Positions 1-32,598 of a stretch of DNA of 64,000 nt are shown here, piece after piece; position 1 is the stretch's first letter, and each line of letters opens with the position of its first letter. This DNA is from Methanobacteriota archaeon (lineage in GTDB: Archaea; Thermoplasmatota; E2; DHVEG-1). Both the position numbers and the translations under genes were made by a program. Under the pieces are notes generated by a model. That model searched no databases and was not told the DNA's origin. It saw only the letters and a list, made by a program, of their open reading frames with translations. The DNA lies in contig JAZDGT010000002.1 in the NCBI GenBank assembly GCA_043806635.1, positions 41,974 to 105,973 on the forward strand, given 5' to 3'.

Positions 1-351
1 GATATCAGTAACACCAGTATCCGGGATAATAATACTTCTACTGACTTGAGGAAGTTCAGGTGATCCTTTCACTTGAGTATGAGATTCTTTTTCAAGAAGA
101 ATATGCGAATACTCTTGATTGTTTATGTTTACAGTTTTCATAGTGAAACCGTTCAGATGATAGGTGATTGTGGTGGTATCTCCAATTGTTTGTGCTGCGA
201 TATCTATGTTTTGCTGGTTTTGTATGGTTTCATCATTGGTGGATAGTGTTCCGTAAACGATCGGTAAGGTACTTGCTCCAAAAAACAAACCTATTATTCC
301 ACAGATAACTAGAGTTCGTACTATGCTTCCTTTTCCATTCAAGATTTTCAT
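1..351 (-). CDS. Secreted protein, N-terminal fragment that continues past the window start. It has a signal-anchor helix followed by a beta-rich region like the N-terminal (propeptide-type) region of the C25-peptidase proteins at 500..4777 and 54817..58431.
   Basis: Reverse-strand ATG at 351-349 preceded by AAAGGGGGT (SD-like). Translation MKILNGKGSIVRTLVICGIIGLFFGASTLPIVYG...SPELPQVSRSIIIPDTGVTDI stays open to base 1. Absent from the ORF track because no stop lies in the window. Confidence 0.55.
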   Translation of the reverse strand, partial: MKILNGKGSIVRTLVICGIIGLFFGASTLPIVYGTLSTNDETIQNQQNIDIAAQTIGDTTTITYHLNGFTMKTVNINNQEYSHILLEKESHTQVKGSPELPQVSRSIIIPDTGVTDI

Positions 352-499
352 ACCCCCTTTTAACAAAGTTAATTTTTTCAATATTAATTGACTATATAAA
401 TGTTTGTTGTATGGAGAGGATGGCAGAGGTATTTCTAATATATTTTAATGAAAAAAGAAAAAAAGAGGGGGGATGATGAAACACTGGTTAGGGGTGGTG

Positions 500-1792
500 T
501 TAAATTCCGTTTATCGTGAATTGAGTGAGCACTCCGGTCTTTGACTGTAGTTGCACGATGAAGGTGACTTGGTCGGTTTCAAATGTGATGATACAGGTGT
601 CTCCATGGTATAGTGGTTTCCCAACGACTGATGCTTCCGTAAAAAGATTGTAGAGTTCGGCTTGGTCGTATTTCAACACATTCTCAACTGATTTCCGTGC
701 TGCTGTAACGAGTGTATTCACTGCATAATCATGAAGCACACCAGAGCGTTTCAGGTTTGTTTGTACGAGTTTTATCTCAGAAGGAGTCAATGGTGAGGAC
801 GTCTCTGCAAAGGAGACTGTACACGTTTCGGTATTTGTGACAACGCCTTCAGGTGGGTCAGTGATCACCACATATTTATTCTTATACGTATCACCAATAA
901 TACTGATAGGTTGGAAATACGTGGTGAGGAACTGCTGAGTCGTCACATACGTGTTCCCACCCAAACCACCAGTCTTCGGATCATTCAACCAGAACCCATA
1001 CACCGTGATCACAGGGAAATCAGGGTAGTTCTGCCATGCGCTCCGGTTCGTGTGAATCCCTCGTACCGTCATCCAGTTGTTATAATTCCCATAGGTGGGG
1101 ATCGCTATTGGTACATTTGTGGGATGCCCGGGTTTCGGCCAAAACGTCGGGTACCCAAAATCACCGTTATGATCATAATCAACCCCGTACGTGAAATCAA
1201 GCCAGATACAGATATCCCGTAACACAACGGTTGCACTCGTGTTCGAAGCAGGCGTGAAGAAATACCCATACAGATCAATAGGCAAGGGTTTGAATTGATT
1301 TAAACCAGCACACATCTCATCAGTGGTGAGCGTAAGTCCACCCTGCGTGTTAAACCAGGTAAACAATTGTTGTTGATCCGCGTAGTGCATCGGTGGCCCG
1401 CTCGGGTTCAACGTACTATTCCACCACAAGTAGTTGAGCATCATCTGCGCTATTGCCGCCCCTGTATCCATCGTCGCCGTGTAGAATGGGAACTGCTTCA
1501 AATCACGGTAATGGACATTCAAAATCAGATTCTGGTTGATACTTTTCGCACTGATTTCTCCCGCGGTTACGACATGGTCAGTGACGTTGACTGATTCATC
1601 GTTGTCTCGTGCGGTGAAACGAAGTGTTTCGCTTGCGTTCACATCCCGGCCTGCATATATGACAAGGGAGTAATGATTATTGTTGGTACTTGCCTCCCAT
1701 TGTTCCCCGGTGTTCAGATTCTTTATTTCAACAGACACGGAGTTCACCGGACTCATATCATGGTAATAACAGTATCCCTCAATAGTGACTCG
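500..1792 (-). other. Shared C-terminal module, copy 1 (last 430 aa of the 1425-aa protein, plus stop).
   Basis: Begins RVTIEGYCYYHDMSPVN and contains HYRDLKQFPFY, DTGAAIAQMMLNYLWWN, GHPTNVPIAIP, NNWMTVRGIHTNR, YGFWLNDP and KYVVITDPP. Ends KTGVLTQFTINGI. Confidence 0.85.
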
Positions 1793-4777
1793 GTTGGCGC
1801 CAATCAGCCATTCAAGGACTCGGTTCATGACTTCGTTTCGGCTCGTCTGTGTATTAATCGCTTCAAAACCAAACGCAAAATACACGACTTTGTATCCGGC
1901 AGTATCTGTTTTCACTGCTGCTTTGTATGCTGATGACTGATACGTGAAGACCACGGTCCCTGGTGAAATCGCTTGAATTCCATCAGGATAATTTTGATTG
2001 TTTGCTCCATCACCACCGGAGATTCCCAGGGTTAATCCGTCACCGATAGGGTCACCAACGGTTCCTAATAACGTGTAAATATTAGTATCATCAACTTGAT
2101 ACGTCGCATGTAAATAGTTCGTATAGAATGGTGTCGTCCCGATATCGTATCCTATCTCTTGGCTGGTGAGGAAGAACCGACCACCATTGGTTAAAAAGTT
2201 TTGGAGGTTCGCCTGATCCGTCGAGTCAAGGGTGTCTGACCAGTCATCTCCACAGAACCAGATTACTGCGTCATAGGTTGCCATTATCGTTGATGAAGGG
2301 CTTCCTTGTGAGCTTCGATCCCATCGATCATAAAGGTAGTTACATGCCATAAGTGCATTTATATAATATGTCTCGTAAGATTCTCCGTAGTCATCATCAA
2401 CTAGCAACACGTACCCGTTTGCGATAAACACAGAAACGTTCTTACTCAGCTCATTATTCCCAAGATACGGTTCTTGACCAGCGATGGATGCAGCAATGGA
2501 GACCGGGTATGTCCCAGGAATGGTTGGTACCCAGTTGAAATTCACATTCGTACTCCCACCACTACTCAAAAATACTTGCTGTGTGGAGAGAACAACCCCG
2601 TTTTCTTTGAATGAAACCGTGATTAATTCATTTGTTGTCCCCGGGTTTGCTACGGTACCGACGACTATTGTCAGACGACCAACCGCGGCATAATCATTCA
2701 CCGTGATACTCGTCACCGCAACATCAGGACCAGCTACCACAAGCGTGCTCATCTCATTATCATAGTAGACATCCTCGATTACTCCAGGGATTGAAACGTT
2801 TATCGTTAAAAGGTAGACCCCAATCTCCAGGGGCGTCCATTCGAAATTCACCTGAGTAAACGATTGACTCGCACTAAATGGTATAGTAAACGTGTCGATT
2901 TCTTCATCATCGACAAGGAATTTCACCAAAACATTATATTCATCGTTTTGCCCGTTATTTGCGATAGTTGCCTCAACAGGCACCAGCTGACCAGGAAGAA
3001 CATGACTAGGGACATCAATCGATGTAACTGCAACGTTATGCTCAGGTAAAAACCGTGGTTTGATAGACAATGACGGATCACCTAATAAATTGTAACATTC
3101 CATGTAATACGTGCTCAACCCGCCACCACTATAATGTTGCCAGGTGTCATATTTTGCTTTATCAGTCATACCCGCTAAAAACCAGAGGCCTTCAACCCAC
3201 CACGCATGAAACATGGCTTTCTCCAAGATATCATCCTCATCCCAATACGTTGAGGCGGAGCTTCCCCAGAACGCGAGACCCCCTTTGTCGGGGACACGCA
3301 GCCAGGTTTCCCCAAAACATTCACTGATATCAAACGGGTTAGTGCTACAAGCATGGCTGCACACAAACGGGTACATATGGGCGTTCGTGAGATCATATCG
3401 GACATTATTCTGATCAAACGGTGGTCCATCAGCCCACCCCCCTGAATACCCATGACCTGAATAAACCGAGATCACACGACCATCGTTATGGGCATTAATC
3501 ACCTGCTGAGTCGTCGCACTATAGGTGTGACAATAGAGTTTATCACTGACATACCCCTCAGGATCAAGATACGTGCTAATCACATAATTATGGGTTCCTT
3601 CGGAAACCTGCCAATTATCCTCTGATGCCATAAACACTGCTTTCCCAAGCCACTCTGTTGAAGGAAACGTTCCTTGTTCGTACTCCAATGTTTTTCCTAC
3701 GATGATATTCATCTCCGCTTCAGTTGCTGCGGGAAAACGACCGATGAAGATATCTGGGAAAATATCACCTTGACTGATTGTGACGTAATAGAGATCCGTC
3801 GCAGTCCCACTTGAAGATCCGGTGTAGGTAGGAATCTGAGGGACGTCACCGGCTAGGAGAACGAACGAGGGAGGTACCGGCCATTCCTGATACGCTTGAT
3901 CAATATAGGTATGGATGTTTTCTTTTGTGGGACCGCCGGGGATTTGTGAGGTTTTGGTTACCGTGACCTCATATCCTATAGAATCTTTCCAATTCGCAAA
4001 GGGAAGAATCGCTGAGTAGAGCACATCAGGTACGATGATTAAAAAACCGGTTTGATCCTTCCCACCAATTGCATATCCTTGATTGAATTGACCATAATTA
4101 TCAAAAAAAGATTGATACAGAAGATTAAAATCAGATGAATAATATCGTGCTTTATTCGTATATGTTTTTACCAGGTCACTACCTGGTAGACTAATCTGAA
4201 TATCACAGGATTTCATCACATGTAATTCCCCGGAAACAGGGTTATATTGGACTGGGGAGATCTCAATAAGTATGAATCGACTCCCTCGTATTTCTCCCTC
4301 TTCGGTTATCCGTGCAGGTGTTTCTGGGAAAAACAGGTCTTGATGATAGTAATTTTGATTAATCGTAAAAGGTGTATTCTTGTTTCCGTCCAAGGTTTTT
4401 GGTATTGATGGTTGCACAGGAAGTATTCGGTTTGAGAGACCTATTTGTTGAAGCGATGTGGTTCTCCATTCCACCGATGAAAGTGTGAGCGAAGGAGTTG
4501 ATTCGTATGGTATTTCAAGTATTTTTGTAATAACCGGGAGTTTCGCCTCGCCGACGATGGTTGTATACCCATAGTTTGGAAGGTCGAGTGTTGCGAATAT
4601 GCCTTGTGTGGTTTGGATATTTCCGTAAGTGATACTTGGGATGTCTATATGGAGATTTATTGTTTGGTTATTTTCGTCTAGAGTGTTTCGGCTTCCTATT
4701 GATGGAACAATGCTCAATAAAACGAATAGACACACTATTCCATACACTATCTCTTTTTGTAGTATTTTCTCTCGCAT
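500..4777 (-). CDS. Giant secreted protein (1425 aa). Order: signal anchor, propeptide-like region, C25 (gingipain/clostripain-fold) cysteine peptidase domain, two CARDB-like Ig domains, an unassigned alpha/beta region, then the shared C-terminal module.
   Basis: N-terminal hydrophobic helix IVYGIVCLFVLLSIVPSIGS. His motif VYSGHGYSGGW and Cys motif FVCSHACSTNPF with C25-like spacing. Two repeats of the type DVAVTSI...G....V...ANNG/ANPG (CARDB-like). C-terminal 430 aa homologous to the ends of the next three genes. Confidence 0.8.
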   Translation of the reverse strand: MREKILQKEIVYGIVCLFVLLSIVPSIGSRNTLDENNQTINLHIDIPSITYGNIQTTQGIFATLDLPNYGYTTIVGEAKLPVITKILEIPYESTPSLTLSSVEWRTTSLQQIGLSNRILPVQPSIPKTLDGNKNTPFTINQNYYHQDLFFPETPARITEEGEIRGSRFILIEISPVQYNPVSGELHVMKSCDIQISLPGSDLVKTYTNKARYYSSDFNLLYQSFFDNYGQFNQGYAIGGKDQTGFLIIVPDVLYSAILPFANWKDSIGYEVTVTKTSQIPGGPTKENIHTYIDQAYQEWPVPPSFVLLAGDVPQIPTYTGSSSGTATDLYYVTISQGDIFPDIFIGRFPAATEAEMNIIVGKTLEYEQGTFPSTEWLGKAVFMASEDNWQVSEGTHNYVISTYLDPEGYVSDKLYCHTYSATTQQVINAHNDGRVISVYSGHGYSGGWADGPPFDQNNVRYDLTNAHMYPFVCSHACSTNPFDISECFGETWLRVPDKGGLAFWGSSASTYWDEDDILEKAMFHAWWVEGLWFLAGMTDKAKYDTWQHYSGGGLSTYYMECYNLLGDPSLSIKPRFLPEHNVAVTSIDVPSHVLPGQLVPVEATIANNGQNDEYNVLVKFLVDDEEIDTFTIPFSASQSFTQVNFEWTPLEIGVYLLTINVSIPGVIEDVYYDNEMSTLVVAGPDVAVTSITVNDYAAVGRLTIVVGTVANPGTTNELITVSFKENGVVLSTQQVFLSSGGSTNVNFNWVPTIPGTYPVSIAASIAGQEPYLGNNELSKNVSVFIANGYVLLVDDDYGESYETYYINALMACNYLYDRWDRSSQGSPSSTIMATYDAVIWFCGDDWSDTLDSTDQANLQNFLTNGGRFFLTSQEIGYDIGTTPFYTNYLHATYQVDDTNIYTLLGTVGDPIGDGLTLGISGGDGANNQNYPDGIQAISPGTVVFTYQSSAYKAAVKTDTAGYKVVYFAFGFEAINTQTSRNEVMNRVLEWLIGANRVTIEGYCYYHDMSPVNSVSVEIKNLNTGEQWEASTNNNHYSLVIYAGRDVNASETLRFTARDNDESVNVTDHVVTAGEISAKSINQNLILNVHYRDLKQFPFYTATMDTGAAIAQMMLNYLWWNSTLNPSGPPMHYADQQQLFTWFNTQGGLTLTTDEMCAGLNQFKPLPIDLYGYFFTPASNTSATVVLRDICIWLDFTYGVDYDHNGDFGYPTFWPKPGHPTNVPIAIPTYGNYNNWMTVRGIHTNRSAWQNYPDFPVITVYGFWLNDPKTGGLGGNTYVTTQQFLTTYFQPISIIGDTYKNKYVVITDPPEGVVTNTETCTVSFAETSSPLTPSEIKLVQTNLKRSGVLHDYAVNTLVTAARKSVENVLKYDQAELYNLFTEASVVGKPLYHGDTCIITFETDQVTFIVQLQSKTGVLTQFTINGI

Positions 4778-4989
4778 AATATTTTTATCCCCCTTATAAG
4801 AGTGAAATATTATATTTTATGAGTGCTTATAAGTTTTTGTTTCCTTAAAAAAATGCAACAAATAATATCATATTTGTTATTACTATAGAAGAATAATCAT
4901 TTGTTATATCGTCTCGTTGTTGTACCGTACGATAGAGCAGTACGGTGTTGTTTATGATCGCTGAGACGTGCTTTGAATCCGATGTGTGG

Positions 4990-6240
4990 TTATTTCAGGT
5001 GTACTGAGAATTGTTGTCCTGCACCATCAACGCCAAGCTTCACTGTGATATCCATGTTGGTGTTACCAACGGTGATGATATAGCCGTTTCCTGTGCGCAT
5101 TGGTTTTCCAACCGTCCTAAGACCAGAGATGAGTGAACCATAGGTGAGGTCGTTACTCAGGACACTGTTCACAAAATCAATGGCTTGCTGTCCTAGAACG
5201 AAAGATCCAACGTTCGTTTTCAAAGTCTTGATCTCAGTTAGGGTGAATCCGCTCTGTGTTCCTACTTTTAAGCTGATGCTATTCGTGTTAACTGCGGGTG
5301 CATCGCGTGGCGGATCAGTGATCACCACAAACTTGTTATTATAGTAATCGCCGGGGACGTTTAATTTCTGGAAATATGTACTATTAAAGTATTGATACGT
5401 AACATAGACATTATTCCCGACGCCACCGGATACAGGGTCATTCACCCAGAACCCATAAATCGTTACCGGACCATTAATGAGCTCGTGATCACCAGGTACA
5501 TTAGTGTCCCACATGCTCCGGTTCGTGTGAATACCACGGATCACCATCCAATGATCATACGATCCACCAGTGGGGACCGCGATCGGGACATGATACGGAT
5601 GACCCTCTTTTGGTACATCAACAAGTCGGTGTTCGTTCGACCCACTAATATTATAATCAAGCCAAATCACCGCGCTCTTCAACGCATCCACTGCCAGATC
5701 ATGCCCAGACGGAGCGAAGAAATAACCGTAAATCCACCCGTGACCATGGTCATCGATTTCCGCGTTCAAACCACCAGAAAGTTCACTGACGTTCATCTGG
5801 TTCCCACCCGCATACGTATTGTATAATGTTTGTTCATTGTACACACTCTGCGGTTCTGGGAACAGGGTGTCGTTCCACATACAGTAATCAAGCATCTGCT
5901 TCATCACCATCGCACCACTATTTACTTGTGAGAGGTAGAATGGGAACTGTTTCAGATCGCGATAATGAACTTTAAGAGTCAGATCAAGTTGAACATATCC
6001 TGCAGCGATGTCTGACGTGGTTATTAATCGATTCGTGACATTGACTGAGTTATCATTATCTCGAGCGATAATGCGGAGGGTGTCTCCCGCATGTATCTCA
6101 TCACCTGGTACCAAGAACTGGGTATAATAATTGTTATTCGTGTCTGCTTGCCATTGCCCTCCCGTATTAAGATTACTGATGTCAACAGTGATGATATTCG
6201 CAGGACTCATATCGGGGTAGGTACAATATCCTCTAACCTC
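4990..6240 (-). other. Shared C-terminal module, copy 2 (last 416 aa).
   Basis: EVRGYCTYPDMSPANIITV, HYRDLKQFPFYLSQVNSGAMVMKQMLDYCMWN, GHPYHVPIAVP, DHWMVIRGIHTNR, YGFWVNDP, KFVVITDPP. Confidence 0.85.
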
Positions 6241-9672: not shown

Positions 9673-9829
9673 ATGTTTTGTTTCATTATGGGGTGTTAAT
9701 ATTAATATACATTATCTTAATATTTAAATTCTTCTTCTTTATGACAATATGCTCAAATAGAATTTTATTAACAAGACGATTACCCGATATGTCTGTATCA
9801 ACGAAACAGATAAAAAATAAAAAAAGAGT

Positions 9830-11110
9830 TTATTGATTTTTTTCACTAGTTTTTTCTGAGCTTTTAATAACGATTTGGGCAAGAGCACCAGTTTTTGTAT
9901 AGAGTTGCACTTCAAAGACCAATCCAGCGGTGTCAAAGAAGACCGTACAGGTATCATCTTTATTATAGACTGGTTTTCGTATGACTCGTGTGTTTTCAAA
10001 GCAAGGACTATACACAGAATCATATTGGAGTACGGTTTTCGCGGCTTTTGCTGCGGCATGGATGACAAGGTTATCAATTGGTTTTGTAGTAGTTGTTTTA
10101 CTTCTTTCAGCAACAAGTTTCATTTCAGTTTTGGTGAATCCCGTCGCAGGTTCAGCGATCGTAACAGTGACTTGATCAGTATACACTAGTATATCTCGTG
10201 AGGGGTCAGTTATAGCGAGGCGTTTCCCGTTGTAGAGATCCCCGGGTACGGTGAGGTTGAGGAAGTAGGTGCTGAGGAATCGTTGCGTGGTGACGTACGT
10301 GTTTGCTCCTAACCCTCCTGCTTTTGGATCATTAAGCCAGAACCCGTACACATTAAGTTGCGTTGGTGGCAGCCACGCGTTCCGATCAGTATGGATGCCT
10401 CGGATCGTCATCCAGTTGTTGTAATTTCCACCTGTAGGGATGGCGATGGGGACATGGTTCGGATGACCGGGTTTGGGAACATCGACATCTCGGATGTTGT
10501 TGTAGTAGTTGACGGGGTAGTCGAGCCAGATGCAGATCTGTTTCAGGACATCGTTCGCGTTGGTGCTAGCATACGGTGAGAAAAAGTACCCGTAAATCCA
10601 CCCATGTCCATAGTCGTCAATTTCGTTATTCAATCCTGAGGTGAGTTCACTTCCATTAATAATGTTATCAGTTCCTTTATAGGTGTTGTAGAGGGTTTGT
10701 TCGTTGTAGACATCGGGTGGCCCTTCAGGGTTCATTGTCTGATTCCACATGAGGTAGTCCATCATCATTTTCATCGTCATCGCACCTGTATCTATTTGAG
10801 AGAGGTAAAAGGGGAAGTCTTTCAAGTCCCTATAGTGGATATCTAAAATAAGATCACGAATGATGGTTCCATTATTGATATCATCAGTGGTGACTTGATA
10901 ATCGTACACCTTGACTGATTCATGAGTATCTCGTCCGATAAATCGAAGCATATCACCAACATTAAAATCACTCCCAGGATACAATTGAAGGGAGTATATG
11001 TTATCAAACGCGTGTGCACACCATTTCATACCTGTGTTAAGATTACTGATTTCTACTGTGATGTTGAATACTGGGCTTTGATTCTGATAATATACTGATC
11101 CAGTGAGTAT
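9830..11110 (-). other. Shared C-terminal module, copy 3 (last 426 aa).
   Basis: ILTGSVYYQNQSPVFNITV, HYRDLKDFPFYLSQIDTGAMTMKMMMDYLMWN, GHPNHVPIAIP, NNWMTIRGIHTDR, YGFWLNDP, KRLAITDPS. Confidence 0.85.
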
Positions 11111-13756: not shown

Positions 13757-13861
13757 ATAGCCTCCAACTCCCGTATTGGTATTTACATTTCAATATATAA
13801 AACATACTTCATAATAATAGGTTAAAATAATATAAAATAAGAAAAAAAGGAGAGATATGTT

Positions 13862-15145
13862 TTACTGCACGGATACCTGTTGGGTCGATATCTGTATTTC
13901 TAAAAGGGATCCATCGAGTGTATTGATGAGTATTTTAAAGGTGGTACCTTGGTGAGCAAAGTTGACTAAGCAGGTGGCTTTCTCATATCGTGGTCTTGCG
14001 GTTGGTTGTGCTGACGTAAAAAGATCCGCATACACAGGATCGTTTTTAAGGACATCACTTGCTGCCTCATACGCAGCGCGAATAACAATGTTATCAGTGA
14101 TGATATTGGTTAGTTTTCCTTTCACTAGTCGATTGACAAGTCGTGCCTCGTTTGCTGAGAACTTAACAGGTGATTCAACGAAATTTACAGCTGTATCAGC
14201 AACAGGAGAAGCAATATCTCGTGGCGGATCGGTTATCGCTAGGTATGTCCCATTGTAGGTATCATTCAGAATAGTGATGGGTTTGTAGTAGACGTCGAGG
14301 AATCGTTGTACAGTCACATAGGTATTACTGCCGACTCCGTTTGGTTTGGGGTCGTTGAGCCAGAACCCGTACACATTGAGTTGTTCAGGGGGTAGCCACG
14401 CGTTCTGATCCGTATGTATCCCACGGATTACCGCCCAGTTGTTATAGGCTCCATATAAGGGTATCGCGACGGGCACGTGGTTCGGGTGACCGAGTTTAGG
14501 GACATCGACATCACGAAGGTAGTTGTAGTAGTTAACAGGGTAATCCAACCAGTAACAGATATGTTTTAACGCAGGGGTGGGACTCGCGTTGTGATAGGGT
14601 GCGAAGAAGTATCCGTATTGCCATGGTGGTGTTTGGTTGCGATCGTCAATGAGTCTGTTGAGTCCGCTGCAGAGTTCGTCTCCATCGAGGTATGTTCCTC
14701 CATGAATGTTAAGTGAAATAAATAATTCGTGTTGATCAGGGTACGTCAGGGGTGGCTCTGAATATTGGGTGTTGTTCCACATGAGGTAGTTCAGCATCAT
14801 CTGTGCAACGGTCGCACCGGTATCAACTTGGGATACATAGAATGGGAAACTCTTGAGATCACGGTAATGTACAGTGAGAATAGGATCAAGGGTGATACTT
14901 CCCGTGCTGATATCAGAACTGGTAACGATGTGATCAGTGATGTTCACGGACTCATTTTCGTCTCGAGCGATAAATCGGAGGATCTCTCCTTGGTGGACAT
15001 CAACACTATTAATGATAGCTGTAGAATAGTAATTAGTCTCTGTCTCTGCCTGCCAGGTCTCTGTCGTATTCAAATTACGGATCTCCACGGTGAGGTTATT
15101 CACCGGTTGCATACCCGGGTAGTAACAATGTCCTTGAATGGTTAA
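13862..15145 (-). other. Shared C-terminal module, copy 4 (last 427 aa).
   Basis: LTIQGHCYYPGMQPVNNLTV, HYRDLKSFPFYVSQVDTGATVAQMMLNYLMWN, GHPNHVPVAIP, NNWAVIRGIHTDQ, YGFWLNDP, TYLAITDPP. Confidence 0.85.
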
Positions 15146-18100
15146 TAAGGGGAGTGATGTGGTGATTTTTACTTCATCGATAACACCGAGGAACGGGAGG
15201 TAACCGCCCCAGCCGCTGAGTCGTTTACCGATACCTAGGTTTTGGGTTGTCGCCGCTGGTGCATACGACCACGGTGTTTGTCCTTGTGGTTGTCCATCGA
15301 CATAGATTTTTATGGCACTTCCATCCCAGGTTCCGATAACGTGATGGCATATGTTATCTCGAAGATCAGTCGTTCCCATGACGTCTTGGTTCCCATGAGA
15401 ACCGCTGTAGAGGGAGAAACGGAGTCTCCCGTTGGTGAGATACAGGGTGAATCCTCTGGAATCAGAACCGCTAATATATTGATACTTATCCGCAATCGTG
15501 AGGTAGTTATCTGATCCGGTGGCTTTGATGTATGCTTCGACGGTGAATGGGCTGGTGATTGCTAAACTAGTTGAATGTGGGACGGTGACACAGTCGCCGT
15601 CGTACCATTGTCCGCCACCGTGGAAGTAGAGTGCGTTTCCTTGGCAGCCGGTGGTCCAGGTTGCTCCTGTGATGGTGCCATCGTTATGATTTGGTGAGGA
15701 ATCATGAGCAATCGTTCCTGATCCTTCTTCGAACCGCCAATACCCTGCGACGGCTCCAGTAGTAATGGTTTCTGTGGTGAAATGCCAAATCGAGCTTGCG
15801 GTAGAATACCCGTAGGAATCATAAGCCATTATCATCCAGTAGTAGGTGGTGTTATCATGAAGCGTACCAGGGTTATAGGTTGTTGTGGTTTGTCCTTGTG
15901 AAACAATAGTGAAAAGAGTAGGATCGTATCCCCAATACACATCATAGGTGAGGGTATCCTCAGGATCGGGGTCACTACAGCTCCAACTCAGGTGAGAATA
16001 AATCGAGACGTTCAGAGCATCATTACTCGGTGTGGGTGATTGAGGAGTGGTAGGTGCGAGGTTGGATTTCGTGGTAAACGACCAGATTGGCCCAAGTGTT
16101 GAGAGACCAGCGTTATCCCAGGAGATAATCTGCCAATAATATGTGGTATCGTACGCGAGATCGGGAAGATTATAAGCAGTTGAGGATTGATGATCGGAGA
16201 TTAATGATGGGTTTGCTGTCTCTCCAAAGTAAACATCATAGGCAACGGTTTCACCAGCGTCAGGGTCGCCACCCGTCCAGCTGAGATCACTGGTGAGGAT
16301 GACCGTTGTTGCCTCATGTGCTGGTGATGGATTAGAGGGTTGATAGGGTGGACTATATACGTAGTGTACGGGGAGGGCATAGGTTGCACCGATATCGTCG
16401 CTGATGACGACATCTTGGTATCCATCGCGATTGTTATCTGTAATTGAGACGCCTCGTGGGTTTCCTATTCCCATGAATTCTTTGAGTAGCTCATGATTCT
16501 GATTGAAGATGGTGACTCCACCAGTTTGGACGATCGCAAGATCATTTTGACCATTTGTGTCGTAATCACCGATAGAAATCCCCTGTGGATTGGCGAGTCC
16601 ATAAAATTCATCGATGAGTTGTCCGTTGGTTCGGTAGATATAGACGACCCCCGTCTCAGAGGATATTGCAACATCGTTCAGCAGGTCGTTGTTGTAGTCG
16701 CCGATAGAGACGTCACGTGGGTTTGGAACGTTGTATTCTCGTAGGATTTGCCCATAGCGATTATAGACGCGGACCCCTGCCGGATTAATAAGTGCGATAT
16801 CCTGGGATCCATCGTTGCCGAAATCTCCGACTGCGGAACCGAGCGGCTCAACAAGTTTCGTCAGCATCGTCTCGTATCCAACGTCACAATAGTCCAGTAT
16901 ACTCTTATACGGTAAGGGAGCCGCTAAACAGTTCTCGTAGGTATCACCGATGAACGGGTTGTAGGTTTGTGTGGCATTGGTTCCATTCCGATGATCAATG
17001 AAACCGAAGAAAATAATCACGGGTCCATCCTCGGTTGCGACTGCAAGATCGTTGTATCCATCGCGGCTGAAATCCTTAATCGTTACACCCTCAGGACCAT
17101 CCAACCCGGTGAACCGGGTGATAATATCACCGGTGTTAGAATAAACAGTGACACTTCCTCGTGTGTATTCAGCAACAACGAGATCGTTATCGCCATCATT
17201 GTTGAAATCACCGATAGAGACACCCAAAGGACCACTCAGGTTCGTGAGTTGCAAAATGATCCCTCGGGATTGATCATGGACGGTTACCAGTCCACGTTCA
17301 TATTCTGAGATAACGACATCATTGAATTCATCATTATCAAGAGTACCAATGGCTAAACCACGGGCTCCTGCCAACCCGGTGTATTCAGATATGAGCCCAC
17401 CAAAACGATCGTAGATACGAACACTCGCATTGAAATCTTCAATGAGTCCAACATCTAAGTGAGTATCATCGTCGTAGTCATCAATCGAAACACCCATGAC
17501 TTGACGTAACCCGAACAGGCTGTCTTCGATGTCCCCAAGGCCATTTTGCACAACCATACTACCAATATTCGTATTGAGGAGTTCTTTGAACCTGGAATTA
17601 TCCAGTTTTTGACTTAAAATAGTTCGTCCCTCATTGTTACCGAAAAATAATCCTATATCATTCTGTATAAAATGGGATATTCCTCCGGGGTTCTCTTCAC
17701 CACCACCAGGGGAACCTGGAATAAGGTTCGCGTAAATAGGTGTTCCCCAGTTTAAAGGACCGCCAGAGAATTGCCGTGCGAGTCCGCAGTAGTTCCCACC
17801 GATCACCCGGAACGCAGCAGGTGGATTTTGGTACGCCTGTGGAAGGAACAAGCTGATACTTGTTGCTGGTCCACTGTATTCTTGACCACCAGGTTTTGCA
17901 GGATCTGATGGAAAAATCCATTGTCCACCGACATATTCACCTTTTTGGAGAATATAAAACGTTGCCCCAGGTACCGATGTCCAGCTTATCGTGAATTGCT
18001 GCTGAGACAAAATATTCGATCCATTAATCGGTGCCGTGATTATGGGTGTCCCTACAGGTGGACTCATGCCAAGCAGGGTACAATCTGGGACAAGGACTTG

Positions 18101-21100
18101 CATGTCAACGTTGCTGCTCCAGGGGGAAAAACCATGACCATCTATGGCTCGAAGTCGGTAATAGTAGGTGGTTGAACTCGTGGGTGTGTGTATGATTTTT
18201 CCGATTGCTTGGGAGAAATTCGTGTAATCACCTGAGAACGAAGAAAAATGTTGTACGTTTGTGAGGAACGAAGGATCAATGCTTTCTTCTACCTGAAATT
18301 GCACGTTATCCATGGACTCCCAGCCTACATCATATGCTTGGTATGCAGCGCGGACGTACCCTGGATCATGGATGATGGGTGTGGCTGGAGCTTTGCTGCC
18401 GATAACATCAACTGCGATTACGTTACTATATGCTCCTTCAGGGCCGACACCGATTCCTTTCACTTTATAATAGTAGGTGGTGGAGTTGTCTTGTGTATAA
18501 TTAAATGTTTTTTTCATGGGTGGGAGGAGGTGAAGACCGCCGAGGAGGTACTCTTGTGATTCAGCGAATGTTTCGCTCTTGGATTCTTTTATTTTATAGA
18601 TGCATTCCGCGTCAACCCGCGTCCATTGAATCGTATATGGTTGCCCTGAGTACACCAAGGTCTTGTCTGTGGAGAGCACAGGGGTTCCGGGGGTGGTCCC
18701 TTGAGGGACAACAGTTTTTTGGATGGTGTTACTCCAGGGTCCTCGTCCGCCGATGTTTTCCGCGCACATCCGGTAAATGTATGTGCCGGTTTCACTGTTT
18801 GTGTGTTTAAACGAGAAGTATGTGGTGTTATCTGTTTCTTTCTCAGTTGGGGAACCGAAATAGGGGTCAGTGTCTTCTTGAATAACGTAGTGATCAGCAT
18901 CACTGACGTTGTTTATGAACTCGATACGATAGGAGATGTTCGAGGCAACCGTATTTATAGATTCAAGGAGAACGGTGGTGTTCTGTGGCGCGCGGACGAT
19001 AACGATGCCGTCGAAGTTACTGGAGCTCCCCTCATGTCCCCATTGATCAATTCGGGTGATATTGTAATCGTAGACCGTATGTTCTGAGACGGTGTGTGTC
19101 ATGTTCACTTTACAGATATTTACGCCCCATTCTGATGAGTATGTCGCGTTTTGTGGTCCATCATAGTGAATGGTTCGAATCGGTTTTCGTTCTAACCGGT
19201 AGGTATCCCCTGCGGTGAGGTTCACCCATTGATATTCGGTGAGATTATACCCATATACTACGCCGTCTCCGCGTTCCCAGACAACACCGTAAACGTCTCC
19301 AGATCCGATGCGGTCTCTGTTCACATCAAGTTTAAGAGCATCGAGTGGTGGCGCTGAGATTATCGTTTGGACGATATTACTTGCAGAACTTGCTTGATCA
19401 AGTTTATCATATGCAGTGACACGATACTGGAGCGTATCCCCAACAAAACTATCGTTTTTTATGAATGCTCTAAACGTGTAACTCCCCTGTGCTGCGTGTG
19501 TGTACCAATTATTTGTCCCATGTTTTTCTTCAACAACATAGTAATACCCGCGGTCCACTGGTTCCCAATCAATGAAAAAGATTTCACTAAAATTCGGAGA
19601 GGTATCGGAGATCCGCACGGAGGGGGCGCTAGGTGGCTCAAGGACTTCTAACACATAGGAGTCGTTATCTATACCACCGTTTCCATCAATTAATTTACAG
19701 AGAATCAGGTACTTCCCCGGTGACAGGATTTTATTGAAACTGTAATCAAGACTATTTGTTTGACCAGAGGTTTGAAACAAGGTTTTACTGGTAATATCAC
19801 CGTGTTTATCCTTGGTGATATTATACCATTCATACGTGTATGGTGGATCCCCCTTGATGACTTCCGCGCTAAAATGGATGGATGATCCTTTTCGATAGGG
19901 ACCAGGATCATTATAGTTAATATTAACAATTGGGAGTTCCTCTGGTTCAAAATAAATTACTGCACTATGCATCCAGATTCCTCTCTCATGATTGTTCTCT
20001 CGATCATTCCAGATATCAAGGAACGGTTCACCGCTGTACATGAAATTCACGTACCCAGCGGCTGCACCACCAGCTTTCACAGAGGAAGACGCAGCAATCC
20101 AGATATAATTCTCTGAGTTCTTACTGAGAGAAACATCACGAAATTGGAGTTCTTTATGACCTTTTGTTCGTTCATCAATAAGCGCCATATCAATGGAGAA
20201 ATCAAGGATACTCAATAAGGCGCCGATACCAACAGTCCCCAATACACGCGCACCACCGGCTCCTGCTTGGGTTGCAATACGTGCTAAATAAACATCTGCA
20301 ATTTCTGTGGCTAACGTCTCCATCCCATTAAATGTGAAATCAAAAAGAAGATCCGAACCACCTTTATCCAATACTTGGGATTTTACTTTTTCACCAGGCG
20401 GATAATTGGTACAAACTCCTGCGCTTACCTGATATCCCCATTCAGCACACCCGACAGGATACACTTTGTTGGTATCAGTGGTCCCTTGCCATGTAACAAC
20501 AAAGGCGACATCTGCTTTTCTCTTCTCTGAAATAGATCCAGGAATACCAAATCCCTTATAGTTAAAAATCGTCAGACTTGAATAGGCTCTCCGCCAGTTC
20601 GTCACAAACGTAGTCCAATCATCAGGATCAGGAATGAAGGAATAATGGTACCCATGAGCAAACACCCACGATTGAACTAATGTACCAAACGCGTTCTCAT
20701 CCTGATAAACCATCCCGTTATAACCTGTATAATAATCACCAGCATACGCAGTAACCCGTGCGTCATCATCAGAAGTACTAATATCGATATACGACCCCTC
20801 ACGCATAAGGGGATAACATCCGTAGGAGTTTAGTGTGATATCAAGTTGGTGAAAATCATACGGAAGAGAGGAGAGGAAAATGCTATCATGGACGACACCA
20901 ACGTCCTGTTGATTTTTCTTTCCACAGATATATGGTTCATGGATACTTGACATTGAGGGATGGTGCCCATGAAGCATAAAGGTGATGTTATCATTGAGAT
21001 TAACGGATGAGGGATCACCCAGGTCCGTAATGAGATGACTAGTGACCATAGAACCGTAGGTGTCTTCAAGATCGATGTGGTAAATTGCTTGATTTTCATT

Positions 21101-21373
21101 ACTCGCGTATATCCATGCGGGGTCAAATTCATAACGAGTGACCGTTCGCTGTGTTTCTTCGTCATAAAACACGAATGGTTCTGATCTTTGTTTAGTATTT
21201 TCTTGATTTGTTGATGGACAGTCGCATGAATTATTTTCTACTGGTAATATCGGTAATGTATTTTGAGAGAATCTGGTAGCAACCGTTGGTAAAACTCCTG
21301 AGGTTATTAGTATAAAAAAGAGGATACATACTACAGCTTTTTTTATTTTAATTTGTAACATATTTTTCTGCAT
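13862..21373 (-). CDS. Giant secreted protein (2503 aa). Order: signal anchor, orphan domain of about 480 aa, PKD-like domain, a series of FN3-like domains, FG-GAP/VCBS repeat region, two FN3 domains, LamG domain, then the shared C-terminal module.
   Basis: FN3-like repeats with W..V..A..Y patterns. Repeats IGDFNNDGDNDLVVAE, IGDYNNDLLNDVAI and IGDYDTNGQNDLAIV (FG-GAP/VCBS). LSWTGGDPDAGETVAYDVYFG...YYWQIISWD and LSWSCSDPDPEDTLTYDVYWG...YYWMIMAYD (FN3). AGYWRFEEGSGTIAHDSSPNHNDGTI (LamG_3-like). C-terminal 427 aa homologous to the other modules. Confidence 0.85.
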   Translation of the reverse strand: MQKNMLQIKIKKAVVCILFFILITSGVLPTVATRFSQNTLPILPVENNSCDCPSTNQENTKQRSEPFVFYDEETQRTVTRYEFDPAWIYASNENQAIYHIDLEDTYGSMVTSHLITDLGDPSSVNLNDNITFMLHGHHPSMSSIHEPYICGKKNQQDVGVVHDSIFLSSLPYDFHQLDITLNSYGCYPLMREGSYIDISTSDDDARVTAYAGDYYTGYNGMVYQDENAFGTLVQSWVFAHGYHYSFIPDPDDWTTFVTNWRRAYSSLTIFNYKGFGIPGSISEKRKADVAFVVTWQGTTDTNKVYPVGCAEWGYQVSAGVCTNYPPGEKVKSQVLDKGGSDLLFDFTFNGMETLATEIADVYLARIATQAGAGGARVLGTVGIGALLSILDFSIDMALIDERTKGHKELQFRDVSLSKNSENYIWIAASSSVKAGGAAAGYVNFMYSGEPFLDIWNDRENNHERGIWMHSAVIYFEPEELPIVNINYNDPGPYRKGSSIHFSAEVIKGDPPYTYEWYNITKDKHGDITSKTLFQTSGQTNSLDYSFNKILSPGKYLILCKLIDGNGGIDNDSYVLEVLEPPSAPSVRISDTSPNFSEIFFIDWEPVDRGYYYVVEEKHGTNNWYTHAAQGSYTFRAFIKNDSFVGDTLQYRVTAYDKLDQASSASNIVQTIISAPPLDALKLDVNRDRIGSGDVYGVVWERGDGVVYGYNLTEYQWVNLTAGDTYRLERKPIRTIHYDGPQNATYSSEWGVNICKVNMTHTVSEHTVYDYNITRIDQWGHEGSSSNFDGIVIVRAPQNTTVLLESINTVASNISYRIEFINNVSDADHYVIQEDTDPYFGSPTEKETDNTTYFSFKHTNSETGTYIYRMCAENIGGRGPWSNTIQKTVVPQGTTPGTPVLSTDKTLVYSGQPYTIQWTRVDAECIYKIKESKSETFAESQEYLLGGLHLLPPMKKTFNYTQDNSTTYYYKVKGIGVGPEGAYSNVIAVDVIGSKAPATPIIHDPGYVRAAYQAYDVGWESMDNVQFQVEESIDPSFLTNVQHFSSFSGDYTNFSQAIGKIIHTPTSSTTYYYRLRAIDGHGFSPWSSNVDMQVLVPDCTLLGMSPPVGTPIITAPINGSNILSQQQFTISWTSVPGATFYILQKGEYVGGQWIFPSDPAKPGGQEYSGPATSISLFLPQAYQNPPAAFRVIGGNYCGLARQFSGGPLNWGTPIYANLIPGSPGGGEENPGGISHFIQNDIGLFFGNNEGRTILSQKLDNSRFKELLNTNIGSMVVQNGLGDIEDSLFGLRQVMGVSIDDYDDDTHLDVGLIEDFNASVRIYDRFGGLISEYTGLAGARGLAIGTLDNDEFNDVVISEYERGLVTVHDQSRGIILQLTNLSGPLGVSIGDFNNDGDNDLVVAEYTRGSVTVYSNTGDIITRFTGLDGPEGVTIKDFSRDGYNDLAVATEDGPVIIFFGFIDHRNGTNATQTYNPFIGDTYENCLAAPLPYKSILDYCDVGYETMLTKLVEPLGSAVGDFGNDGSQDIALINPAGVRVYNRYGQILREYNVPNPRDVSIGDYNNDLLNDVAISSETGVVYIYRTNGQLIDEFYGLANPQGISIGDYDTNGQNDLAIVQTGGVTIFNQNHELLKEFMGIGNPRGVSITDNNRDGYQDVVISDDIGATYALPVHYVYSPPYQPSNPSPAHEATTVILTSDLSWTGGDPDAGETVAYDVYFGETANPSLISDHQSSTAYNLPDLAYDTTYYWQIISWDNAGLSTLGPIWSFTTKSNLAPTTPQSPTPSNDALNVSIYSHLSWSCSDPDPEDTLTYDVYWGYDPTLFTIVSQGQTTTTYNPGTLHDNTTYYWMIMAYDSYGYSTASSIWHFTTETITTGAVAGYWRFEEGSGTIAHDSSPNHNDGTITGATWTTGCQGNALYFHGGGQWYDGDCVTVPHSTSLAITSPFTVEAYIKATGSDNYLTIADKYQYISGSDSRGFTLYLTNGRLRFSLYSGSHGNQDVMGTTDLRDNICHHVIGTWDGSAIKIYVDGQPQGQTPWSYAPAATTQNLGIGKRLSGWGGYLPFLGVIDEVKITTSLPLLTIQGHCYYPGMQPVNNLTVEIRNLNTTETWQAETETNYYSTAIINSVDVHQGEILRFIARDENESVNITDHIVTSSDISTGSITLDPILTVHYRDLKSFPFYVSQVDTGATVAQMMLNYLMWNNTQYSEPPLTYPDQHELFISLNIHGGTYLDGDELCSGLNRLIDDRNQTPPWQYGYFFAPYHNASPTPALKHICYWLDYPVNYYNYLRDVDVPKLGHPNHVPVAIPLYGAYNNWAVIRGIHTDQNAWLPPEQLNVYGFWLNDPKPNGVGSNTYVTVQRFLDVYYKPITILNDTYNGTYLAITDPPRDIASPVADTAVNFVESPVKFSANEARLVNRLVKGKLTNIITDNIVIRAAYEAASDVLKNDPVYADLFTSAQPTARPRYEKATCLVNFAHQGTTFKILINTLDGSLLEIQISTQQVSVQ

Positions 21374-21511
21374 TCTTTCTACTCCCCTTTAATAGATATT
21401 ATATAGAGAATGATGAGTAAACACGTATTTAAATATTCCTTTTTCTTTATAAAATTATGTAACATTTAGAATATATCACGAAAAAAAGGGAAAAAATAAT
21501 TCAAATATATT

Positions 21512-21706
21512 TTATTTCCTTGAACATTGCAAGAAAATCTCTACACTCCGATCATACGTCCGCTCCACCGTATCAGGGAAATAACATGCAGGAAGCTCAT
21601 CCCGATCACGATGATAACTAATACACTCACAACACATCCCCTTCCTACTACACGGATAACTACAATTACAATCTTCTTTATTCTTTTGTATTTTACACTC
21701 AACCAT
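21512..21706 (-). CDS. Small cysteine-rich protein (64 aa), resembling the DUF6485-type CNC..PC..KG.CCEC family.
   Basis: [23 protein letters not shown]. Starts 2 nt after the ligA stop, so it is likely co-transcribed. Confidence 0.5.
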
Positions 21707-21708
21707 GG

Positions 21709-25421
<3,713 letters not shown>

Positions 25422-25423
25422 TC

Positions 25424-32551: not shown

Positions 32552-32598
32552 TCCAAGATCCAGTATACCAACACACTCCTTCTCCGTATCATAACCAA

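What the first reader, a model, noticed from the sequence alone, without database searches (positions are those of the whole stretch)
1..21373. Five tandem, co-oriented genes for giant secreted multidomain proteins fill the first third of the window
**Seen in sequence.** All coding capacity from 1 to 21373 is on the minus strand, in five consecutive genes. One is cut by the window edge; the others are 1425, 1560, 1308 and 2503 aa. AT-rich spacers of only 100-210 bp separate them.
- Each protein starts with a signal or anchor helix and is rich in N-x-S/T sequons.
- The enzymatic and adhesive domains differ from gene to gene: C25 peptidase; C1 peptidase with DUF2341 and LamG; FG-GAP propeller with a beta-helix; PKD, FN3, VCBS and LamG.

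**Inference.** This looks like a dedicated cell-surface or host-interaction arsenal that expanded by duplication and domain shuffling. A locus organised this way, with variable heads on a constant tail (next finding), is not a system I can name from the literature.
Basis: partly seen in the sequence, partly recalled or inferred. Interest (0 to 1): 0.85.

Follow-up and report, generated by a model that had tools for sequence, protein, structure and literature searches.

The report
Secreted protease/adhesin genes sharing one tail
An uncultured sediment-type archaeon (Thermoplasmatota) carries a row of large secreted protease and adhesin-like genes that all end in the same 430-residue module, which belongs to a sizeable but undescribed protein family also found in some bacteria; the heads are ordinary, the shared tail is the unknown.

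Summary
Bases 1-21373 hold five co-oriented minus-strand genes: a 117-aa fragment cut by the window edge, then genes of 1425, 1560, 1308 and 2503 aa. Spacers are 105-212 bp and AT-rich. Each spacer has an oligo-T run, and four of five have a TATA-like box.

All five proteins start with a hydrophobic export helix. The heads differ: C25 gingipain-like with CARDB; C1-like papain with DUF2341 and LamG; FG-GAP propeller with beta-helix; FN3-like, FG-GAP and LamG. PKD is not supported.

The four complete genes end in a common ~430-aa tail (40-50% identity). It matches nothing in Pfam, NCBIfam or PDB sequences. Its AlphaFold model is confident, but only its first beta-sandwich finds a fold match.

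The tail family has at least 583 clusters, in Thermoplasmatota, ANME-1/2, Micrarchaeota, Phycisphaerae and Omnitrophota. It nearly always sits C-terminal to signal-peptide proteins, whose heads are mostly peptidases and binding modules.

A related contig keeps the flanks (LigA, a small Cys-rich ORF, a g1 orthologue) but lacks g2 and g3, and its giant gene has a different head. So the locus is variable, and the paralogues are old.

Best reading: an extracellular protein-degradation and attachment toolkit, with the tail as a shared, probably non-catalytic, targeting or anchoring module. Nothing points to host interaction.

The parts
1..351 (-). g0: the first 117 aa of a fifth gene, cut by the window edge. 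It has an N-terminal hydrophobic helix and then a propeptide-like stretch. It is probably a C25-type peptidase. Whether it has the tail is unknown.
   Evidence: Translation. Hydrophobic segment. 39% identity to the 852-aa L041 protein, which has Propeptide_C25, Peptidase_C25 and Peptidase_C25_C. Collinear weak match to the g1 N-terminus (E 0.007). No direct Pfam hit.
352..499 (-). Spacer upstream of g0, GC 0.32. It has oligo-T runs, TTTATATA 49 nt before the ATG, and a GGGGG ribosome-binding-like site.
500..4777 (-). g1, 1425 aa. Signal helix; Propeptide_C25 (aa 42-197); Peptidase_C25 (245-571), with GHG and SHAC motifs visible by eye; two CARDB (584-~760); an unassigned ~230-aa region; tail (aa ~996-1425, bases 500-1792).
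4778..4989 (-). Spacer upstream of g1, 212 bp, GC 0.31. It has an oligo-T run and a GGGGG site.
4990..9672 (-). g2, 1560 aa. Signal helix; papain-type (C1-like) cysteine peptidase (aa ~100-400; GSCAAWA, NHANTVVGY and NSWG motifs); Ig-like region; DUF2341 (790-882); Laminin_G_3 (905-1055); tail (aa ~1141-1560, bases 4990-6231).
9673..9829 (-). Spacer upstream of g2, GC 0.24. Oligo-T follows the g3 stop directly; TTTAAATA lies 56 nt before the ATG.
9830..13756 (-). g3, 1308 aa. Signal helix; FG-GAP/PQQ-type beta-propeller (aa ~50-440); right-handed beta-helix/NosD (~560-840); tail (aa 881-1308, bases 9830-11116).
13757..13861 (-). Spacer upstream of g3, GC 0.24. Oligo-T; TTTATATA 45 nt before the ATG; GGAGG site.
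13862..21373 (-). g4, 2503 aa. Signal helix; ~450 aa without any family match; ~800 aa of likely Ig/FN3-like modules with no significant Pfam hit; FG-GAP repeats (~1385-1600); two FN3-like domains (~1697-1870); Laminin_G_3 (1927-2070); tail (aa ~2077-2503, bases 13862-15139).
21374..21511 (-). Spacer upstream of g4, GC 0.21. Oligo-T runs; TTTAAATA 60 nt before the ATG; GGGGA site.
21512..21706 (-). Small Cys-rich ORF (64 aa) between LigA and g4. It is conserved at the same place in L040. It is a context and synteny marker and is not shown to belong to the system.
21709..23769 (-). NAD-dependent DNA ligase LigA. A housekeeping flank that anchors synteny with L040 (80% identity).

Best explanation
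The locus is a row of at least four, probably five, separately transcribed genes in an uncultured Thermoplasmatota archaeon. They encode Sec-exported extracellular proteins.

**Heads.** Two or three heads are predicted active cysteine peptidases: g1 is C25 gingipain-like, g0 probably is too, and g2 is C1 papain-like. Two heads are binding or adhesin-type assemblies: g3 has a beta-propeller plus a beta-helix, and g4 has FN3-like, FG-GAP and LamG domains.

**Tail.** The four complete proteins end in the same three-domain ~430-aa module.
- First comes a carboxypeptidase-regulatory/transthyretin-like beta-sandwich.
- Next is a ~225-aa alpha+beta domain. Its order of helices and strands and its motifs recall the papain fold. 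A C/S/T-Gly sits at the N-terminus of a helix, followed by 'W..RGIHT' and 'YGFWxNDP..GG.G.NTY'. In the window copies the canonical Cys is replaced by Thr or Ser, and the canonical His mostly by Asn.
- Last is a ~110-aa helix-plus-sheet domain.

**Function (inferred).** The set works outside the cell to degrade detrital protein and to attach to particles or cells. The tail is a common, probably non-catalytic, targeting or anchoring module. It puts the different heads at one place, either the cell's own envelope or a shared insoluble substrate. This is the way a carbohydrate-binding module, a dockerin or a T9SS C-terminal domain unifies otherwise unrelated cargo.

**Shown versus inferred.**
- Shown: gene layout, head families, the tail family and its spread, and locus variability.
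- Inferred: export, separate transcription, extracellular proteolysis, and the binding role of the tail.
For: - **Layout and heads:**
- **Export:** an N-terminal hydrophobic helix in all five proteins and no C-terminal helix. Low charged-residue, high N/S/T composition unlike the cytoplasmic neighbours. 81 of 102 full-length family members have a hydrophobic N-terminus.
- **Separate transcription units:** oligo-T after each stop, and TATA-like boxes 44-60 nt upstream of four of the five starts.
- **Constant tail:** 40-50% pairwise identity over ~430 aa, with no similarity between heads.
- **Tail structure:** AF2 pLDDT 89-91, pTM 0.79-0.90. The N-terminal sandwich matches CnaB, transthyretin-like and dioxygenase sandwiches.
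- **Family size and spread:** 583 clusters at E<=1e-3 and 163 at E<=1e-30. Hosts are Thermoplasmatales-type MAGs, ANME-1/2, Micrarchaeota, Phycisphaerae/Planctomycetota, Omnitrophota and Acanthopleuribacteraceae.
- **Position:** the tail is C-terminal in proteins of 550-2400 aa. In ANME loci it can be almost the whole secreted protein, so it is an autonomous module.
- **Heads elsewhere (47 members scanned):** C25 (7-8 of 47), S8, C10, Trypsin_2, C1, M14, PAD_porph, LamG, DUF2341, NosD/beta-helix, Kelch and CBM96.
- **Conserved positions:** the invariant positions in the family are mainly W, G and P. N, D, Y and R are nearly invariant. The nucleophile-like position varies (S66/T65/C41/A12), and the position equivalent to the papain His is N138/H38. 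This fits a binding site better than a catalytic site.
- **No linked partner:** no gene family recurs next to the tail genes across 117 loci, so the module probably acts on its own.
- **Ecology:** secreted C25, C10 and C1 peptidases are already reported and expressed in sediment Thermoplasmatota (PMC6461988).
Against: - No binding target is known, and no experiment exists.
- The papain-like assignment of the middle domain is not established. Foldseek finds no PDB or BFVD match. hhalign against small C1 and C10 profiles is non-significant.
- 94% of members keep a potential nucleophile (C, S or T) followed by an almost invariant Gly. H242, N262 and D263 are 81-98% conserved. A non-canonical catalytic activity is therefore not excluded.
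- Export is inferred from hydropathy only. It is unresolved whether the N-terminal helix is cleaved or acts as a membrane anchor.
- Whether g0 has the tail is unknown.
Confidence: 0.45

Rival explanations
1. The tail is an active enzyme. It would be a divergent papain-like or transglutaminase-like hydrolase or transferase that uses Cys, Ser or Thr at the helix N-terminus. It would process or activate the heads, or covalently cross-link the protein to an envelope or substrate polymer.
For: - Position 110 is C, S or T in 172 of 186 members and is followed by Gly in 181 of 187.
- H242 is conserved in 170 of 209, N262 in 209 of 213 and D263 in 206 of 213. Cys110 co-occurs with H242 and D263 in 34 of 41 cases.
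- Two weak local hhalign alignments put T110 on the catalytic Cys helix of a C10 peptidase, and N234 on its catalytic His strand.
- Peptidase heads with propeptides are frequent in the family, so a maturation role is conceivable.
Against: - The window copies have Thr (g1, g3, g4) or Ser (g2), and 12 members have Ala. An internal Thr is a rare nucleophile.
- The position that pairs with N262/D263 in a papain-type hairpin (234) is Asn in most members, including the Cys-bearing ones.
- The alignments to C10 have P of 0.045-0.1 and Prob about 1%, so they are not significant.
- Non-enzymatic heads carry the same tail.
Confidence: 0.2
2. The tail is a sorting or secretion signal, a functional analogue of the T9SS C-terminal domain. 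It would be recognised by dedicated machinery and cleaved off or exchanged for an anchor during export.
For: - It sits at the C-terminus of signal-peptide proteins.
- The cargo list (C25, C10, M14, PAD_porph, subtilases, adhesin-type repeats) is very like the CTD cargo of Porphyromonas gingivalis: gingipains, CPG70, PPAD and a C25-like peptidase (PMC5445135).
Against: - The tail is 430 aa in three folded domains, far larger than the T9SS C-terminal domain (about 80 aa, from my own knowledge).
- No T9SS sorting-domain model matches the tails. The only such hit in the NCBIfam scan (TIGR04131, E 0.023, below cut-off) lies in the g4 head.
- The hosts include single-membrane archaea, which need no second export step.
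- No conserved neighbouring machinery gene was found in 117 loci.
- The module occurs alone as a complete secreted protein in ANME loci.
Confidence: 0.1
3. The tails assemble with one another or with a scaffold. The co-encoded enzymes and binders would then form one extracellular multi-enzyme complex, cellulosome-like but for protein degradation.
For: - Tail genes lie in tandem and co-oriented in 9 of 115 loci. The window has four, L016 has three, and several MAGs carry three or four copies.
- Heads within one locus are complementary: peptidases plus binders.
Against: - Phycisphaerae loci in the scan showed one tail copy each. The pattern-based scan undercounts, so this is weak.
- No scaffold-like gene is conserved nearby.
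- There is no oligomer prediction or experiment.
Confidence: 0.1
4. One reading: a dedicated host- or partner-interaction arsenal of a symbiotic or parasitic archaeon.
For: - Adhesin-type domains are present: FG-GAP, beta-helix, LamG and FN3.
- The locus varies between close relatives.
- The family is also present in Micrarchaeota and Omnitrophota, lineages with episymbiotic or predatory members (the lifestyles are from my own knowledge).
Against: - The window encodes ordinary free-living housekeeping and anaerobic metabolism: NrdD with its activase, enolase, adenylosuccinate lyase, TyrRS.
- The nearest relatives are sediment Thermoplasmatota, for which detrital protein degradation is the published reading.
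- Nothing in the sequence points to a host.
Confidence: 0.1

Closest known systems
T9SS cargo proteins of Bacteroidota (gingipains RgpA/B and Kgp, CPG70, PPAD and others), with an N-terminal signal peptide and a conserved C-terminal domain
   Same: Unrelated secreted heads share one C-terminal domain. The head repertoire overlaps: C25, C10, M14, PAD_porph and adhesin repeats. All have an N-terminal signal peptide.
   Different: The tail is ~430 aa in three domains, not an ~80-aa beta-sandwich. No T9SS sorting-domain model matches the tails. The hosts are archaea, Planctomycetota and Omnitrophota. No linked sortase or translocon was found. Cleavage has not been shown.
Secreted cysteine peptidases of sediment Thermoplasmatota (MBG-D/Thermoprofundales): gingipain C25, interpain C10, C1A
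   Same: The same phylum-level lineage. The same peptidase families with export signals, read as detrital protein degradation (PMC6461988).
   Different: In what I read of that paper (a term search), peptidases were catalogued by MEROPS family. I found no mention of a shared C-terminal module or of tandem arrays with non-peptidase heads.
Clan CA (papain-like) peptidases and their inactive homologues, such as C1, C10 and C39-like domains
   Same: The order of secondary-structure elements is similar. A small nucleophile-type residue followed by Gly sits at the N-terminus of a long helix. An 'N-x-x-x-x-G-G-x-G-x-N-x-Y' motif after the second strand of a hairpin recalls the C1 motif 'NSWGxxWGxxGY' (the comparison is from my own knowledge).
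   Different: No significant sequence, profile or fold match was found. Cys is present in only 22% of members, and His is mostly absent from the expected position.
Modular extracellular enzymes with shared targeting modules (CBM-bearing glycoside hydrolases; dockerin-bearing cellulosomal enzymes)
   Same: Variable catalytic or binding heads are joined to one constant non-catalytic module. They form multi-gene families, often clustered.
   Different: The module here is unrelated in sequence. Its ligand or partner is unknown, and no cohesin-like scaffold was found.

Membership tests
Peptidase family C25 (gingipain-like), for g1 | Match to the C25 catalytic-domain and propeptide models above the curated cut-offs | tested here: met
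   Peptidase_C25 scores 219.9 bits (cut-off 23) over model positions 1-373 of 374. Propeptide_C25 scores 64 bits (cut-off 22).
Peptidase family C25 (gingipain-like), for g1 | Catalytic His and Cys present | tested here: inconclusive
   The motifs 'SGHGYSGGW' and 'VCSHACSTNPF' are visible in the translation. Assigning them to the catalytic dyad is from my own knowledge and was not aligned residue by residue.
Papain family C1, for the g2 head | Sequence match to C1 peptidases with the Cys, His and Asn motifs | tested here: met
   The Pfam C1 model gives no hit; there is only a weak Peptidase_C39_2 match (E 3.9e-4, below cut-off). phmmer hits the PDB cysteine protease 3OIS at E 6e-6 and aligns the H and NSWG regions. 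hhalign against a C1 mini-profile gives Prob 94.5%. The member is divergent.
T9SS C-terminal sorting domain, for the tail | Match to a T9SS sorting-domain model; an ~80-aa single beta-sandwich at the extreme C-terminus | tested here: not met
   The NCBIfam scan at E<=0.1 gives no sorting-domain hit in any tail. The only hit is a sub-threshold TIGR04131 match in the g4 head. The tail is ~430 aa with three domains.
Archaeosortase/exosortase substrates (PGF-CTERM, PEF-CTERM, PEP-CTERM) | C-terminal tripartite signal: motif, transmembrane helix and basic tail | tested here: not met
   No hydrophobic 19-mer lies near any C-terminus. No NCBIfam sorting-signal hit. The C-termini are beta-strands of a folded domain.
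Clan CA papain-like fold, for the tail's middle domain | Significant fold or profile match, with a Cys nucleophile at the helix N-terminus and His and Asn/Asp on adjacent strands | tested here: inconclusive
   Foldseek finds no match in PDB or BFVD. hhalign gives Prob <=1.2%, but the C10-versus-C1 control also fails (Prob 1.5%), so the test is insensitive. The nucleophile position is C in 41, S in 66, T in 65 and A in 12 members. The His-equivalent position is N in 138 and H in 38.
Polymorphic toxin or CDI-type systems | Constant N-terminal delivery region, variable C-terminal toxin, and an adjacent immunity gene | tested here: not met
   The polarity is reversed: variable N-terminal heads and a constant C-terminus. 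No small ORFs follow the genes, and the spacers are only 105-212 bp.
Known archaeal S-layer or adhesin operon | Homology to characterised S-layer proteins, or a conserved annotated operon | tested here: not met
   No S-layer family appears in the Pfam or NCBIfam scans. Source names for tail homologues are 'hypothetical protein', 'LamG domain-containing protein' and 'C10 family peptidase'. A Foldseek hit to SlaB covers only the generic beta-sandwich (E 3e-3).

The most novel reading that the evidence does not exclude
The ~430-aa tail is a new, structurally unclassified module. It would define a cross-domain class of extracellular proteins in anoxic-sediment archaea (Thermoplasmatota, ANME, Micrarchaeota) and bacteria (Phycisphaerae, Omnitrophota). 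It would work as a previously unknown surface-attachment or cargo-marking device, perhaps through a degenerate papain-like pocket or a non-canonical Ser/Thr/Cys chemistry that links the protein covalently to an envelope or substrate polymer. That would make it an analogue of sortase or T9SS-type anchoring that needs no separate machinery.
Probability: 0.2. Interest if true: 0.8.

Novelty: new variant of a known kind. Interest (0 to 1): 0.55.

Why it matters
Sediment Thermoplasmatota are abundant and are thought to live on detrital protein. How their secreted peptidases are kept near the cell or on the substrate is unknown.

This locus shows that peptidases and binding proteins of quite different families are tied to one conserved module. 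That module has hundreds of relatives, no annotation and no structural neighbour. It is shared with unrelated sediment bacteria.

Finding its ligand or activity would name a large 'dark' protein family. It could also explain how these slow-growing organisms organise extracellular digestion. The locus is variable between close relatives, so it may serve as a marker of niche adaptation.

Tried and rejected
- **Family and sequence searches on the tail.** Pfam at E<=10 on the four tails, NCBIfam at E<=0.1, and a PDB profile search at E<=10 all found nothing.
- **Fold search, whole tail.** Foldseek against PDB matched only the generic N-terminal beta-sandwich.
- **Fold search, middle and C-terminal domains.** Foldseek against PDB and BFVD gave no credible match. 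Low-probability hits to PepSY/YpeB-like and cystatin-like small domains were not pursued.
- **hhalign of the middle domain** against the g2 C1 domain, a C10 domain or mini-profile, a C1 mini-profile and the window's transglutaminase-like domain was non-significant. The C10-versus-C1 control also failed, so this test cannot decide.
- **Pfam on distant family members** that match only the second half of the profile gave no annotation for the tail.
- **The look-up of encoding contigs** for g4, P0017 and P0010 found no record. For P0005 it returned a gene table without DNA.
- **Neighbour clustering over 117 loci** found no recurrent partner gene.
- **DNA repeats between tails** are only short 60-82% patches, so there is no recent duplication or gene conversion.
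- **Sigma-70 promoter and intrinsic-terminator scans** were at background level and are irrelevant for an archaeon.
- **Rfam** found only one tRNA-Thr.
- **Literature searches** for a description of the tail or of such arrays found none.
- **Rejected ideas.** Class III (pilin-type) signal peptides: only g0 has a KG motif before the helix. DTGA as an aspartic-protease motif: the Asp is not conserved (g2 has NSGA).


Full report
**Observation.** The ORF scan confirms four complete minus-strand genes: 500-4777 (1425 aa), 4990-9672 (1560 aa), 9830-13756 (1308 aa) and 13862-21373 (2503 aa). Only short nested ORFs lie on the other strand. A fifth minus-strand gene starts at base 351 and leaves the window after 117 codons. 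I call them g0 (the fragment) to g4.

The spacers are 148, 212, 157 and 105 bp. Their GC is 0.24-0.32, against 0.44 for the coding DNA. Each spacer has an oligo-T run. Four of the five upstream regions have TTTATATA or TTTAAATA 44-60 nt before the ATG, and most have a G-rich ribosome-binding-like site. By what is known of archaeal promoters and terminators, each gene is therefore probably its own transcription unit. This is an inference.

**Export.** Each protein has a strongly hydrophobic segment within its first ~30 residues, and none has one at the C-terminus. The composition is N/S/T-rich, with only 15-17% charged residues. Cytoplasmic proteins of the same window have 25-30%.

N-x-S/T sequons are not enriched beyond what this composition predicts, and g1 is even depleted (8 against 15 expected). 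Their density is nevertheless 2-5 times that of most cytoplasmic neighbours. No signal-peptide predictor was available, so whether the helix is cleaved or acts as an anchor stays open.

**Heads.**
- g1 has Propeptide_C25, Peptidase_C25 (219.9 bits) and two CARDB domains.
- g2 has DUF2341 and Laminin_G_3, plus an N-terminal papain-type peptidase. The Pfam C1 model misses it; the only Pfam match is a weak Peptidase_C39_2 hit. It is supported by a PDB sequence hit to the cysteine protease 3OIS (E 6e-6, aligning the His and NSWG regions) and by hhalign against a small C1 profile (Prob 94.5%).
- g3 has an FG-GAP/PQQ-type propeller and a NosD-type right-handed beta-helix.
- g4 has FG-GAP repeats, two FN3-like domains and Laminin_G_3. 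Its first ~450 residues match nothing, and PKD is not supported (E 0.37).
- g0 gives no direct family hit. It is 39% identical to the N-terminus of an 852-aa C25 peptidase on contig L041, and that protein has no tail.

**The constant tail.** The last ~430 residues of g1-g4 are 40-50% identical to one another, while the heads share nothing. The tail occurs nowhere else in the window.

It matches no Pfam family even at E<=10, no NCBIfam family and no PDB sequence. AlphaFold models are confident: pLDDT 89.3 for the whole tail, and pLDDT 90.6 with pTM 0.90 for residues 88-428.

The models show three parts. The first is an ~85-aa beta-sandwich. The second is a ~225-aa alpha+beta domain. The third is a ~110-aa helix-plus-sheet domain. 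Foldseek matches only the beta-sandwich, to CnaB, transthyretin-like and dioxygenase-type sandwiches at E~2e-3. The other two domains find nothing credible in PDB (best E 0.046, probability 0.05) or in BFVD.

**The tail family.** A word-indexed search found 31 relatives. The exhaustive profile search found 583 clusters at E<=1e-3 and 163 at E<=1e-30. Hits among species-representative genomes come from these groups:
- Thermoplasmatales-type and 'Methanobacteriota' MAGs
- ANME-1 and ANME-2c
- Micrarchaeota
- Phycisphaerae and other Planctomycetota
- Omnitrophota
- one Acanthopleuribacteraceae MAG

The tail is almost always at the C-terminus of proteins with a hydrophobic N-terminus (81 of 102 full-length members). 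In several ANME loci it is essentially the whole secreted protein. It is therefore an autonomous module.

Heads of 47 other members are dominated by peptidases: C25 in 7-8, S8 in 3, C10 in 2, Trypsin_2 in 2, and one each of C1, M14 and an InhA-like MAM domain. A Porphyromonas-type peptidyl-arginine deiminase also occurs. Binding modules are common too: LamG, DUF2341, NosD/beta-helix, Kelch and CBM96. This list closely parallels the cargo of the type IX secretion system in Porphyromonas gingivalis (PMC5445135), although the tail is not a T9SS domain.

**Conserved positions.** Over 241 aligned tails, the invariant positions are W235, G240, G258, W260 and P305 (numbering of the g3 tail). N262 (209/213), D263 (206/213), R239 (198/209) and H242 (170/209) are nearly so.

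Residue 110 lies at the N-terminus of the first long helix and is followed by Gly in 181 of 187 members. It is S in 66, T in 65, C in 41 and A in 12. The window copies have T, S, T and T.

The order of helices and strands, this Cys/Ser/Thr-Gly helix cap and the motif 'YGFWxNDPxxGGxGxNTY' recall the papain fold. That comparison comes from my own knowledge of papain and streptopain. Position 234 would correspond to the papain His. It is Asn in 138 members and His in 38, and it is Asn in most of the Cys-bearing members.

Two weak local hhalign alignments place T110 on the catalytic Cys helix of a C10 peptidase and N234 on its catalytic His. They are not significant (P 0.045-0.1). The control comparison of C10 with C1, two families known to share the fold, fails equally (Prob 1.5%). 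The papain-like assignment is therefore a lead and not a result.

**Locus variability.** Metagenome contig L040 carries LigA (80% identical to the window's) and the same small Cys-rich ORF. Next comes a 3088-aa tail protein, then a 1420-aa full-length orthologue of g1 (62.5% identity over 1425 aa). Thus g3 and g2 are missing there.

The giant gene at g4's position has a NosD/beta-helix head joined to an FN3-LamG-tail end that is 48-56% identical to g4. This is direct evidence for gene gain or loss and for domain shuffling between conserved flanks.

Tandem co-oriented tail genes also occur in 9 of 115 fetched loci, with at most three in a row (L016). The window's four is the longest run seen, although most contigs are short.

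The window's tails are more similar to tails on other contigs (50-62%) than to one another. They fall on separate branches of a neighbour-joining tree. At DNA level they share only short 60-82% patches. The paralogues are therefore old.

**Organism and context.** The window's TyrRS is 77-82% identical to those of MAGs labelled Thermoplasmatota, Thermoplasmatales or Euryarchaeota. The rest of the window encodes ordinary housekeeping and anaerobic functions. It also holds three further secreted-type proteins without the tail: a C25+NosD protein, a transglutaminase-like protein and a PQQ propeller.

Secreted C25, C10 and C1 peptidases, read as detrital protein degradation, are already described for sediment Thermoplasmatota (PMC6461988). 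I found no paper describing the tail or such arrays.

**Interpretation.** The best-supported reading is an extracellular protein-degradation and attachment toolkit. The different heads share a probably non-catalytic targeting or anchoring module. Four points favour this:
- the module is autonomous;
- it occurs in organisms with very different envelopes;
- no partner gene is linked to it across 117 loci;
- its conservation pattern is dominated by aromatic, Gly, Pro, Asn, Asp and Arg residues, while the nucleophile-like position is variable.

Rivals remain. The tail could be an active non-canonical Cys/Ser/Thr enzyme, a cleaved sorting signal or pro-domain, or an assembly module for a multi-enzyme complex.

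**Verdict.** The heads and the ecological role are known kinds. The shared tail is a large unannotated family with no structural neighbour, which makes the locus a new variant of a known kind and moderately interesting.

Noticed in passing
window 21512-21706 (-): A small Cys-rich ORF of 64 aa ([32 protein letters not shown]...) lies between LigA and g4. A homologous ORF sits at the same place in L040 (~788-980).
   Followed up: partly
window 40301-43438 (+): The anaerobic ribonucleotide reductase NrdD is interrupted by an intein with a LAGLIDADG endonuclease domain (Pfam Intein_splicing and LAGLIDADG_3). The radical-SAM activase follows at 43435-44130.
   Followed up: no
window 21709-26131 (-): A bacterial-type NAD-dependent LigA, a PolX with a PHP domain, and an archaeal CTP-dependent riboflavin kinase-like gene lie in a row. 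The listed LigA and PolX ORFs overlap by 76 nt.
   Followed up: no
window 54817-58431 (-) and 52169-54352 (-): A second C25 peptidase is fused to a NosD/beta-helix (1204 aa), and a transglutaminase-like protein (727 aa) lies next to it. Both look secreted, and both lack the tail. The beta-helix part is 30% identical to that of g3.
   Followed up: partly
window 34561-35880 (+): A PQQ/BamB-type beta-propeller protein (439 aa) is weakly similar to the g3 propeller (23-28% identity).
   Followed up: no
window 32000-33312 (-): A LemA-family gene is followed by a GIDE-like membrane protein gene, and the two ORFs overlap.
   Followed up: no
N-termini of g0-g4; L040, L041 and L045 proteins: The signal peptides of tail proteins in the window and in close relatives share a recurring '...LLF(I/M)GTS(I/L)xP...' pattern after the hydrophobic core.
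   Followed up: no
window 48001-50000 and 52001-54000: Two low-GC stretches (0.326 and 0.319) stand out against a window average of about 0.42.
   Followed up: no
L061 2435-4423 and one further locus: LigA lies beside a tail-bearing gene on at least three independent contigs, including L040. The ligase may be a recurrent flank of such loci.
   Followed up: no
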